A stretch of DNA of 64,000 bases from Octopus vulgaris. Lineage: Eukaryota. Location: assembly GCA_951406725.2 (NCBI GenBank), contig OX597831.1:24986001-25050000 (forward strand). Direction: 5' to 3'. The number at the start of each line of letters is the position of its first letter. Within the stretch, counting starts at the first letter, position 1. The position numbers and the translations under genes are program-made. The notes beneath the pieces are model-generated. The model did no database searches. It was not told the DNA's origin and worked only from the letters and a program-made list of their open reading frames with translations. Below, piece by piece: positions 4,106-55,534 of the stretch.

Positions 4106-4417
4106 GAGGGTGCTTGGCTTAGTTGTTAGGGTATTGCACTTGTGATTGGTAGATCGTGATTTCAATTCCTAGACCAAGTGGTCTGTTGTGTTCTTGAGCC
4201 AAGCACTTGATCTGACATTGTTCTGCAATCACTTCAACCACGACAATGTCAATTTGATGGAATGAGGGGGCTAATATGCAGTTCGGCAAAAAGAGACCAA
4301 TAGAATAAGTACTAGGCTCACAAAGAATAAGTCTTCGAGTCAGTTTGTTCAACTAAAGGTGGTGCTCCAGCATGGCCATAGTCAAATGACTGAAACAAAT
4401 AAGAGAATAAAAGAATA
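4106..4417 (+). mobile_element. SINE-E head and core (4106-~4250) followed by a SINE-A 3' fragment (4278-4417)
   Basis: tggcttagttgttagg A box, atttcaattcc B-box-like motif, gtgttcttgagc core; then gttcggcaaaa...tgactgaaac. Confidence 0.75.
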
Positions 4418-46427: not shown

Positions 46428-46609
46428 TCTATTACTATTTATTTTCTGACTATTTTTATGCTTTTAAGCTTTTAATGCTATTATTTTAATGATTTGTCTG
46501 ACACGAGACTATATCAGCATTTTTGTGGTTAATTTTCCTCCCTCTCCACCCTTACATTCTTGACAAATTTTTTAGTCTAAGTCCAGTATACATACATACA
46601 TATATATAT

Positions 46610-46895
46610 ATATAAGAATTTTTTGGATAATAAGATAAAAAAACCAAGGCTATATAGATATTAGAGCATTTATATATAGAGGGTCTTACATCTATTTTCT
46701 TTCCTCCACCTCACTCTCTACTTGTATCACATCAAAACTAACTATGACTTAATTTTTCCTCTCACACCGTCTCCGATGACAGGATATTATTAATTAATAT
46801 CCTAGAAACAGCTGTAAGACCTTCGATATATAAATGCTCTAATATCTATATAATCTTGGTTTTTTTCATCTTACTACGCAAAAAATTCTTATATA
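46610..46895. mobile_element. Penelope-like foldback: ~88-bp inverted arms around a ~105-bp spacer
   Basis: 46610-46700 is the reverse complement of 46803-46895 with scattered mismatches. Confidence 0.85.
46769..46820 (+). ncRNA. Minimal type I hammerhead-ribozyme-like motif (variant core)
   Basis: gtct-CCGATGA-c-aggatatta(ttaat)taatatcct-a-GAAA-cagctg-TA-agac; U4 replaced by C, C/A mismatch at the base of stem II. Confidence 0.6.
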
Positions 46896-47751
46896 CACAA
46901 GCTGACATAGAACAAACTTTGAACCCTTTATTCGCAATATTACCGAATCTGGAACTTAACTATGGTCTGTCTATAGCACTTATTCAGCATTACCTGACAC
47001 CTTTGGGTCTCAATAACACCACTATCTCTTATATATGTATATGTCTATATAATTATTTGCAGAATCCAATAGGTTTAAAGTATTTTAATAATACAGACAA
47101 CAAGGTAGAGTCTATACTCCTTGTGTGAAAAAGTCCATAATGTTGAATTTTATTTTAATTCACCAGCAGAGAAAACATTTTCTTTGCATGATGTAATTGA
47201 TTTGTTTATTAATAACAAACACATCTGAAACAGCTGTAACGAACCTCAACCCACATATGTTAATTTACATACATACATATATATATGTGTATGTGTGAGT
47301 GTGTTTAGAGGGATATATTATCCAGGTAGATACCGTAGTAGCTCTAAGCTATGTTCCAGGTTACAGCTACTTTGACTTCTGCCAGCAACTGTTACAAAGC
47401 CAACGTCAACCATACAATTTTAGCAGCAGAGTGGATTTGAAATTCAAACTAACCTCCCCTCCTTTCCTCCTGAACCCTAACTAATAAACAACTAACTGAA
47501 TTCATTTCACTTTGAGCACCAAGCTGGTTGAAAGACCCTGAAGAAAGTGGCAGAGAAAATTTATATCTGGTTGCATATGCAACTGCTCACACATTGCAGC
47601 AGAGACATGTGTAGGTTGCTGTCACCATAAAAATACATTGCATGACATACTGAAGAATTCAAAGAAATAATTTGTGGGGATGTACTAGGCTCCATATTCT
47701 CTATTGTGTGTATATATATATATATACATGTGTGTATATATATATATATAT

Positions 47752-48160
47752 GTGGCTGTGTGGTAAGTAGCTTGCTAACCAACCACATGGTTCCGGGTTC
47801 AGTCCCACTGCGTAGCATTTTGGGCAAGTGTCTTCTGCTATAGCCCTGGGCTAACCAATGCCTTGTGAGTGGATTTGGTAGATGGAAACTGAAAGAAGCC
47901 TGTCGTATATATGTATATATATATGTATGTGTGTGTGTTTGTGTGTCTGTGTTTGTCCCCCTAGCATTGCTTGACAACCGATGCTGGCGTGTTTGTGTCC
48001 CCGTCACTTAGCGGTTCGGCAAAAGAGACAGATAGAATAAGTACTGGGCTTACAAAGAATAAGTCCCGGGGTCGAGTTGCTCGACTAAAGGCGGTGCTCC
48101 AGCATGGCCGCAGTCAAATGACTGAAACAAGTAAAAGAGTAAAAGAGTAAAGAGTAAAGA
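47752..48160 (+). mobile_element. SINE family A in (TA)n
   Basis: Near full length with a long tail. Confidence 0.93.
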
Positions 48161-52807: not shown

Positions 52808-54073
52808 CATAACATGAAAGTTTGGATGTGTAATTAATATATGGGTCTCTCACCTATGGAATTCCATCCATTGCCTTTTTATGATGCTCTCATCTTTCAC
52901 CGACCTCTCCCTTATTCACTAATTCATGCCATCTTTGTAACAGGGGATAGTACTATATTTATTAAAATTATAACTTAGGGTATCTACGAGATACCACCAT
53001 GCTGAAAATAGCAGCAAGGGATCTGACTCTAAAACCACATTAAGTGTTCATATAGCACAAGGGGAGAAGGCAAAAAGACAAAATAAAACAAGTAAAAAAT
53101 TACTGGACAATTTCAGATCCCGGATTTCTGGCTTTGCATTTAGAAATGCTTTATCTCATCAGTGGAATATATGCAGAGAGAAACATAAATACATATATAT
53201 CATCATCATCATCATCATCGTTTAATGTCCGCTTTAATTACATATACGAACGTATACATTCATATATATGCACGTATGCAACAAGACCAGTTTAAAATGC
53301 CTGCTTCTTAATTCCATGTGATATATGGTTAAATACAATGGAGTGCCACAGTAAATATGCCTGTTTCTTAATTCCATCACCACAGTAAATACAATGATGA
53401 AATAAATTTAAATTTATATAAATAAGGAAAGATTACTTAAATTCGTCTCCACACTCACCTCTTTGCCATTCCACTTTTTTGTATACTGACTATGGTAGCT
53501 GTGAAGTTTCGGTTGCAAATATCGTTTACTTGAGCTCAATTTTTAATTAAAGATCTTATGCTGCCTATGCTCTATCAGGAAATGTTTATTCATAAGGTTT
53601 AATGTTAAATGGGCCATTTTTCATCTGTTATTGAATAATAGTTCTTGAGTTATCAAGTGCCATAAAAAATAAGCACTTTTGTCACTTTATGCAGGTCAAT
53701 ACAGTAGATTTCTATCCATTTATATCCAATTCCTTTCTCAAAAGAGCTTTAGAATTTGTTACAGATATCATTCTGCTTAGTAATTCTGACATTAGTATTA
53801 TCATGCATGCTAGGAAATCTTTATTATTTACAATAAGACTTTGGGGTCAAGCATAACAGCCAGGAAACATTTGTTAAACCATGAAAATGTACAATATTAT
53901 GGTTATGATAGACATTAAATATTCAGGATGACCATATTTCATTGCATTTACGAATGTTTTTGCTTATATATTGTCATGCTGCTTTCCTTCTCCAATTGTT
54001 TGAATAATTGGAAACATGAAATTCAGGATAATGATTCAAGAAGCCTTAGCTTCTAATAATAATTCTATATAAG

Positions 54074-54700: not shown

Positions 54701-55534
54701 TATTTAATGGATACATGTTTTTAAATGCTACTAATAGTTTCATATGTTAAGAAATAACTAAAGTATTCATCAGGCATAAGCCGCATATTGTAAAAAAAAA
54801 ATTGAATAAGAGAAGAAACATGAAAAAACTGAGAAAGCAGAATATAGAAACACCAGGTGGACTACTTTTTTGCTGAATTTTCTGTTATATACATACATAT
54901 GTGTGTTATGGGGTTCAATTTCTGGACCGGTCTGTTTACTGTATCCTTGAGCAATGCACTTCATTTTATGTTACTCTTGCCTACTCAGTCGAAGTTGAAA
55001 GTCTGGGTGTTATGCCTGTCTAACATCAAAATATTTGCTGTTTACTGAATTATATATTGCACTAAATTATAGCATTTATATGATGCCTTAACTTAGAATA
55101 CTCACGATAAAAAAGAAGTTATTAAATTTTTATATTTGATAATTTAAATTTATAGGCTTTGTCTGGTACATCTCTTATACATATGAATATACACGTGTGT
55201 CCGCATGTGTGTTGTGCATCAGTAAAACTGGGACAACTGTCTTCTATAGGGAAGAGAGTTTCTTTATTGAACCACTTCTTAAGAATTCATGATTACCTTA
55301 TCCCAATATCTCTCATACCTCTGTGAAACTGCATATGGAGTAAGAGCAATGTATGTGTGTGTGTGTGTGTGTGTGTGTGAGTGTGAGTATATGGATAGGG
55401 GTGTTGGTTGGGGTTTACTTATCCTAGGATGAACTTAATGCTACACAATTCTTATGTGATTATATTTTAGTTAGATAAAGATTCAAGAGTGCAGGTATAT
55501 GTATTCATGCATACATGCATGCATGTGTGTGTGC

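What the first reader, a model, noticed from the sequence alone, without database searches (positions are those of the whole stretch)
46769..46820. Minimal hammerhead-ribozyme-like motif inside a foldback element
Seen: full type I topology, with stem I gtct/agac, core CCGAUGA, a 9-bp stem II, GAAA, a self-complementary stem III (ACAGCUGU) and a UA cleavage site, overlapping one arm of an ~88-bp inverted repeat. Known: Penelope-like elements and non-LTR retrozymes carry minimal hammerheads with palindromic stem III that cleave as dimers. Inference: this is a remnant of a cephalopod ribozyme-bearing non-autonomous retroelement family. This copy has U4C and a C/A mismatch at the base of stem II, so it may be dead.
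Basis: partly seen in the sequence, partly recalled or inferred. Interest (0 to 1): 0.75.

Follow-up and report, generated by a model that had tools for sequence, protein, structure and literature searches.

The report
Hammerhead tail of Penelope-like retrotransposon
This motif is one of thousands of truncated copies of the tail end of a Penelope-like jumping gene, a group already known to carry such predicted self-cutting RNAs; the one unusual point is that the youngest subfamilies spread with a core change that likely weakens cutting.

Summary
It is not a stand-alone foldback element or a retrozyme. It is the 3' end of a Hydra-clade Penelope-like retrotransposon (PLE). Its 16-base 3' half occurs 5,989 times in the genome, against 5 for the reversed control. 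Longer copies lead upstream to a broken reverse transcriptase plus GIY-YIG-type endonuclease ORF with Hydra motifs (5 of 5 loci extended). The inverted repeat is the usual PLE inverted, 5'-truncated partner copy, set in (TA)n. The suspected lesions are mostly inherited: U4C is in 2,646 copies and is the majority state of the two youngest subfamilies, and position 10.1/11.1 is unpaired in nearly all copies. So the element kept spreading with a variant core. Cleavage is untested, and the 5' ends of copies show only a weak, ambiguous excess near the cut site. Hydra-clade hammerheads, including an octopus family, are published; this family differs from it. Earlier scan notes cover other PLE hammerheads in this genome, but none matched this sequence. 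Verdict: new member of a known kind, modest interest.

The parts
46587..46614 (.). (TACA)n/(TA)n microsatellite, left flank and likely insertion target
   Evidence: most family copies end in (TA)n
46609..46690 (-). Inverted, 5'-truncated partner copy of the PLE 3' end (reverse complement of 46813-46895); short 3' end, no tail
   Evidence: fold-back junctions are common in the family
46684..46690 (.). 7-nt microhomology at the inversion junction; it spans the mirror image of the predicted cut site
   Evidence: sequence compared with family copies
46684..46895 (+). 5'-truncated forward copy: 3' UTR / pseudo-LTR of a Hydra-clade PLE
   Evidence: 46684-46816 is 93-95% identical to the 3' ends of ORF-bearing copies L106 and L135
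46769..46820 (+). Minimal type I hammerhead motif: 4-bp stem I, core with U4C, 9-bp stem II behind a C.A mismatch, no stable monomeric stem III
46808..46815 (+). 8-nt palindrome; predicted intermolecular stem III of a dimer
   Evidence: duplex -11.1 kcal/mol; two copies co-fold through it
46816..46817 (+). Predicted cleavage site, 3' of GUA
   Evidence: hammerhead numbering; cleavage not tested
46896..47030 (+). 'Tail' of about 135 nt present at this end only; its distal part equals the 5' UTR just upstream of the ORF start
   Evidence: L138, 46 nt at 85%, sense orientation before the start codon; 30 of 94 copies continue into it, read
47030..47051 (.). TA-rich right flank

Best explanation
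The motif is the hammerhead-ribozyme motif at the 3' end of a Hydra-clade Penelope-like retrotransposon, left here as a truncated copy with an inverted partner, and it is predicted to cut only weakly and only as a pair of two motifs. Shown: family size, physical link to an RT plus endonuclease ORF, staggered 5' ends, two shared 3' ends, (TA)n flanks, and U4C as an inherited state. Inferred from published PLE work: a tandem master (pLTR-ORF-pLTR-tail) is transcribed; two motifs pair through the 8-nt palindrome to build stem III, and cutting after GUA frees the element RNA from upstream sequence; the element's protein nicks (TA)n and starts reverse transcription at one of two internal sites, giving the short end (about +79 from the cut) or the long end (about +214); early termination and fold-back give the inverted pair seen here. 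Inferred here: after U4C the cut is slow and is not needed at each insertion.
For: 5,989 exact copies of the 3' 16-mer against 5 for the reversed control. Staggered 5' ends reach more than 1.5 kb upstream. RT, then endonuclease, then the motif lie in order on one strand in L106, L135, L136, L137 and L138. Hydra diagnostics of Craig et al. 2021 are present: CxCX5C linker, no cysteines between the GIY and YIG words, CxxC and CxH around the conserved E and N, DKT. RT and endonuclease fragments are 51% and 37% identical to an intact 718-aa relative in the same genome. The tail equals the 5' UTR, so the template ran from one unit into the next. Core counts: C4 2,646, U4 2,475. In a fixed 18-mer context CCG 2,061, CTG 1,211, CCA 287, so CpG decay explains only about 290 of the U4 copies. 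On a 48-row tree the A and B copies with C4 form a clade (98/91) nested among U4 copies, and subfamily A is the least diverged, 8.6% from its majority. 62 of 100 copies run 5' through the predicted cut. In another PLE, hammerhead mutants did not affect insertion in vitro and cleavage needed protein (PMC11167929).
Against: No cleavage data. Pfam does not confirm the protein: GIY-YIG E 0.4 and 0.02, below the cut-off, and no RT family hit; a homologue search limited to longer proteins found none. Clade assignment rests on motifs and a by-eye comparison with the published alignment, not on a tree. No intact ORF and no tandem pLTR-ORF-pLTR copy of this family was seen among the 5 loci. The RWK motif reads R*K and WWK in the two copies that reach it. 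Conservation of the core across subfamilies is partly built in, because copies were harvested by those words, and stem I shows no covariation inside the family.
Confidence: 0.85

Rival explanations
1. Non-autonomous retrozyme or SINE-like element mobilised in trans.
For: Most copies are short and non-coding: 79 of 100 end within 200 nt upstream of the cut. Retrozymes are argued to derive from PLE pLTRs (bioRxiv 10.64898/2026.07.22.740005).
Against: No fixed 5' end; continuous homology into the ORF; no tandem arrays among the first 100 listed copies, which define non-LTR retrozymes.
Confidence: 0.07
2. The U4C core is a fully working variant in vivo: the cut is efficient with dimer or protein help and sets the 5' end of many templates.
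For: 5' ends are about twice as dense at -7..+11 (14.9 per 1,000 nt at risk) as at +12..+45 (6.8), and three times as dense as inside the motif (4.3). A viroid U4C variant keeps enough activity for infectivity (PMC3088659). All other core bases are kept in the C4 subfamilies.
Against: No sharp edge: 4 of 100 copies start exactly at the cut, all at fold-back junctions where the base is ambiguous; 1 of 94 in the other sample. An RT stall at the structure or local microhomology would give the same pattern. U4C 'considerably decreases activity in vitro'.
Confidence: 0.3
3. Chance motif in an AT-rich foldback (MITE-like DNA element).
For: No Rfam hit; the monomer minimum-energy fold is not a hammerhead.
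Against: 0 strict hits in 300 control windows; 0 in three 865-kb controls; inverted arms differ in length from copy to copy, unlike terminal inverted repeats; link to an RT ORF.
Confidence: 0.01

Closest known systems
Hydra-clade PLEs and their hammerheads, including Hydra-1_Obim (Craig et al. 2021, PMC8557442; passages, supplement searches and supplement part 2 of 59 seen)
   Same: C-terminal endonuclease with CxCX5C linker and no CCHH, DKT motif, (TA)n targets, inverted 5'-truncated partner, one-sided tail, sense-strand type I hammerhead near the 3' end, stem III of about 4 bp by palindrome; many listed Hydra motifs have a U.U mismatch at the base of stem II.
   Different: A different family from Hydra-1_Obim: its listed hammerhead and RT sequence differ by eye. 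All Hydra motifs in that table keep U4. Here the tail is about 135 nt rather than 30-40, the 3' UTR is about 1 kb, and the unit is about 3.9 kb rather than under 3 kb (L138).
Minimal hammerheads of metazoan PLEs (Cervera and De la Pena 2014, PMC4209133; parts 1-2 of 4 read)
   Same: Type I, short stem I (4-5 bp), long stem II (7-9 bp), palindromic stem III, proposed dimer, thousands of solitary copies, opposite-strand pairs 100-700 bp apart.
   Different: Their consensus keeps G10.1-C11.1 after one extra base and a canonical or U3-A8 core; here there is an unpaired base on both sides of stem II and U4C.
Poseidon PAc element of Anolis (Frangieh et al. 2024, PMC11167929; passages read)
   Same: Two shared 3' ends that bound a tail copied from the start of the next unit.
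   Different: Other clade; PAc start sites and cleavage were measured, here they are inferred from genomic copies.
Non-LTR retrozymes (Cervera and De la Pena 2020, PMC7229834, passages; Li et al. 2026 preprint, part 1 of 5)
   Same: Type I hammerhead, high copy number, link to PLE pLTRs.
   Different: Retrozymes are 150-450-bp tandem arrays without an ORF; this family is dispersed, 5'-truncated and ORF-linked.

Membership tests
PLE (endonuclease-bearing) | Single ORF with RT followed by a GIY-YIG endonuclease | tested here: met
   Order RT, endonuclease, motif in 5 of 5 loci; all broken; Pfam GIY-YIG only below cut-off
PLE (endonuclease-bearing) | 5'-truncated copies with an inverted partner | tested here: met
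   Window copy, L106, L136; 38 of 100 copies flagged as fold-back by a crude test
PLE (endonuclease-bearing) | Tail at one end, copied from the start of the next unit | tested here: met
   longer than the 30-40 bp described
PLE (endonuclease-bearing) | Tandem pLTR-ORF-pLTR copy | tested here: inconclusive
   Not seen in 5 loci of this family; implied by the tail; motif upstream of the ORF seen in the sister family L133
Hydra clade | CxCX5C linker, CCHH absent, CxxC and CxH beside the conserved E and N | tested here: met
   against the description
Hydra clade | DKT and RWK motifs | tested here: inconclusive
   DKT present in L127 and L138; RWK reads WWK and R*K in those decayed copies
Hydra clade | Placement in the clade on an RT tree | not tested
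   Reference proteins were seen only as supplement text
Hydra clade | Insertion into (TA)n | tested here: met
   both shared 3' ends themselves finish in TATA, so the boundary is blurred
Type I hammerhead (minimal PLE type) | Three-stem topology with CUGANGA, GAAA and UH | tested here: inconclusive
   Topology met; core met in 2,475 relatives but this copy and 2,646 others have C at position 4
Type I hammerhead (minimal PLE type) | G10.1-C11.1 pair | tested here: not met
   A.A, A.G, C.A or U.U in nearly all copies; U.U is common in published Hydra motifs
Type I hammerhead (minimal PLE type) | Covarying stems | tested here: inconclusive
   Stem I invariant inside the family, partly by selection; other families in the loci keep the topology with different stems
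Type I hammerhead (minimal PLE type) | Self-cleavage as a dimer | not testable with these tools
   Only the palindrome duplex was computed
Non-LTR retrozyme | Head-to-tail arrays of 150-450-bp units, no ORF | tested here: not met
Non-LTR retrozyme | Circular RNA | not testable with these tools
   Only assembled contigs were available

The most novel reading that the evidence does not exclude
A natural experiment: a PLE lineage fixed a catalytic-core change (U4C) on top of an unpaired 10.1/11.1 position and still made more than 2,600 insertions, possibly twice independently. That would be genomic evidence that fast hammerhead cleavage is dispensable for PLE retrotransposition in vivo, or that the PLE protein rescues a crippled core.
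Probability: 0.4. Interest if true: 0.55.

Novelty: new member of a known kind. Interest (0 to 1): 0.3.

Why it matters
The role of hammerheads in PLEs is an open question: they may process the element RNA or merely ride along (PMC8557442), and in vitro insertion did not need cleavage (PMC11167929). This family offers matched natural U4 and C4 versions in near-identical context, plus an intact-looking sister family with a canonical core, so the question can be tested with a small panel. The window copy itself is an ordinary dead fragment. Standard descriptors that demand CUGANGA would miss about half of these motifs.

Tried and rejected
Rfam scan: no hammerhead model hit. Pfam: nothing above cut-off for this family's fragments or for the intact 718-aa relative. 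Protein homologue search among longer proteins: 0 of 142 candidates passed, weak evidence. Sequencing runs: no RNA holder listed; the 4 runs laid were contigs, which cannot show RNA ends, so cleavage and expression stay open. Alignment A1 held one row on the wrong strand and was not used. 5'-end pile-up at the cut: weak and ambiguous. An idea that the sister family L133 lacks a hammerhead was dropped when one was found upstream of its ORF. Lunse, Weinberg and Breaker 2017 on PLE hammerhead variants is not held; I saw only its title, and it or its supplements may already list these motifs. Searches for print on this family or core ('octopus Penelope hammerhead'; 'U4C hammerhead'; Hydra clade and cephalopod; core words) found only the papers cited. 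Repbase and Dfam could not be checked. A CCA count for subfamily D was not run.

Full report
Verdict. The motif is real. It is the hammerhead motif at the 3' end of a Hydra-clade Penelope-like retrotransposon, a known association. The only unusual point is a core change shared by the youngest subfamilies. Cleavage was not tested.

Observation. The window reads GTCT, CCGATGA, C, a 9-bp hairpin, A, GAA, the palindrome ACAGCTGT, A, AGAC at 46769-46820. A strict type I descriptor finds it alone in the window and nothing in 300 control windows; a relaxed one finds a second motif at 54773 on the minus strand and 0.003 per control window. Rfam gives no hammerhead hit. The single strand prefers a fold with stem II plus a 3-bp competing helix that the private C at 46780 allows (-12.3 kcal/mol) over the hammerhead fold (-8.2). 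Two copies co-fold through the palindrome (duplex -11.1).

Family. A 121-base query gave 1,513 candidates, 40 scored, with matches at 89-100%. The 16 bases from GAAA to stem I occur exactly 5,989 times, against 5 for the reversed control. Copies share two 3' ends, at about window 46895 and 47030, followed by (TA)n. In a sample of 94 copies, 83 align at least to the first end and 30 continue into the longer tail. 5' ends are staggered over more than 1.5 kb. The inverted repeat is a second, shorter copy joined head to head through a 7-nt microhomology; arm lengths vary between loci. Craig et al. describe this arrangement and the one-sided tail for PLEs.

Parent element. Walking upstream gave a C-terminal endonuclease and an RT. 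An RT fragment search scored 150 of 6,501 candidates. In L106 and in all four further loci that I extended (L135-L138), RT, endonuclease and the C4 motif lie in order on one strand, the motif about 1 kb after the ORF. All five ORFs are broken. The endonuclease has the CxCX5C linker, no cysteines between its GIY and YIG words, and CxxC and CxH beside the conserved E and N; DKT is present. These are the Hydra diagnostics. Pfam gives only sub-threshold GIY-YIG hits, and also misses an intact 718-aa relative, to which the fragments are 51% and 37% identical. The family is not Hydra-1_Obim: the published motif and RT differ by eye. The distal part of the tail lies in sense just upstream of the ORF start in L138, so templates ran from one unit into the next.

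The suspected lesions. With a free spacer, C4 cores number 2,646 and U4 cores 2,475 (controls 1 and 2). In one fixed context the counts are CCG 2,061, CTG 1,211 and CCA 287. CpG decay of CCG should give CTG and CCA about equally, so most CTG copies belong to true U4 subfamilies. I sorted 148 copies that passed a motif filter into five groups by stem II. Groups C (22 of 22) and E (4 of 4) are U4, D is 7 of 8 U4, B is mixed, and A, which holds the window copy, is 73 of 101 C4 with 16 CTG and 10 CCA; part of this sample was picked by CTG patterns. A is the least diverged (8.6%, against 12-22%). On a tree of 48 of the 148 copies, the A and B copies with C4 form a supported clade (98/91) inside U4 copies. 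So U4C arose in a master lineage that went on spreading. D-type copies make up about 9 of the first 100 C4 listings, a hint of a second origin that I did not resolve. Position 10.1/11.1 is A.A, A.G, C.A or U.U in nearly all copies; U.U is usual in published Hydra motifs and C.A is listed for PLE-X1_cBra. Contigs from runs under three organism labels also show C4 as the majority among sequences at least 85% alike to this copy.

Is there a footprint of cleavage? An earlier scan note suggested the test. Among 100 copies anchored near the 3' end, 22 start at +12..+50, 16 at 0..+11 and 62 upstream of the cut. The rate is 14.9 per 1,000 nt at risk at -7..+11, 6.8 just 3' of that and 4.3 inside the motif. 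There is no sharp edge: 4 of 100 start at the cut, all at ambiguous fold-back junctions. Partial cleavage, an RT stall at the structure, or local microhomology could each give this. It is inconclusive. That most templates were uncut at their 3' motif fits a weak or dimer-dependent ribozyme.

Mechanism. Shown: the anatomy above. Inferred from PMC4209133 (parts 1-2 of 4 read; monomers inactive, dimers weakly active) and PMC11167929 (passages; two internal start sites define the tail, cleavage needs protein, hammerhead mutants still insert): a tandem transcript brings two motifs together, the palindromes form stem III, and a cut after GUA trims upstream sequence; the element protein nicks (TA)n and primes at one of two sites; early termination and fold-back give the window's structure. 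PMC3088659 (passages and section 8) states that U4C lowers activity in vitro yet supports viroid infectivity, and that U.U is the best-tolerated mismatch at 10.1/11.1. I therefore expect slow cleavage that is not needed for each insertion.

Novelty. Hydra-clade hammerheads, one from an octopus, are in print. I did not find this family or a high-copy U4C core in four searches, but the most relevant paper, Lunse et al. 2017, is not held and repeat databases could not be checked. The scan's earlier notes cover other PLE hammerheads in this genome; none matched this sequence. New member of a known kind; interest 0.3.

Noticed in passing
window 47110-47260 (+), motif at 47159-47243: A decayed copy of a second, older hammerhead family: relatives read TTCAC, CTGAAGA, a long stem II of about 55 nt, the same palindrome, then GTGAA; 299 candidates, 40 scored at 77-87%. 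The window copy has a damaged core.
   Followed up: partly
window 54720-54777 (-) and 53662-53829 (+): A third, canonical-core type I motif on the minus strand, with a Hydra-like RT remnant about 0.9 kb away on the plus strand; probably another decayed inverted PLE pair.
   Followed up: partly
L133 2010-4163 (-), motif at 4324; L134 motif at 1884: A young sister Hydra-like family with an intact 718-aa frame and many equal-scoring copies. Its hammerhead has a canonical core, U.U at the base of a 3-bp stem II and a 4-bp stem III, and lies upstream of the ORF in L133. A natural positive control.
   Followed up: partly
L046, L065, L136, L142, L150, L189, L259, L278, L075, L022: At least seven further type I hammerhead families with different stems and palindromes turned up by chance in 865 kb of fetched loci; none in three controls.
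   Followed up: no
first 100 listings (for example G000:C1:4847371): About 9 of 100 C4 cores belong to the divergent subfamily D, which suggests a second origin of U4C or an old C4 state eroded by CpG decay.
   Followed up: no
window 47705-48000 and about 13 other places in the window: A common interspersed repeat of 250-300 bp at 75-91% identity lies just downstream; not identified.
   Followed up: no
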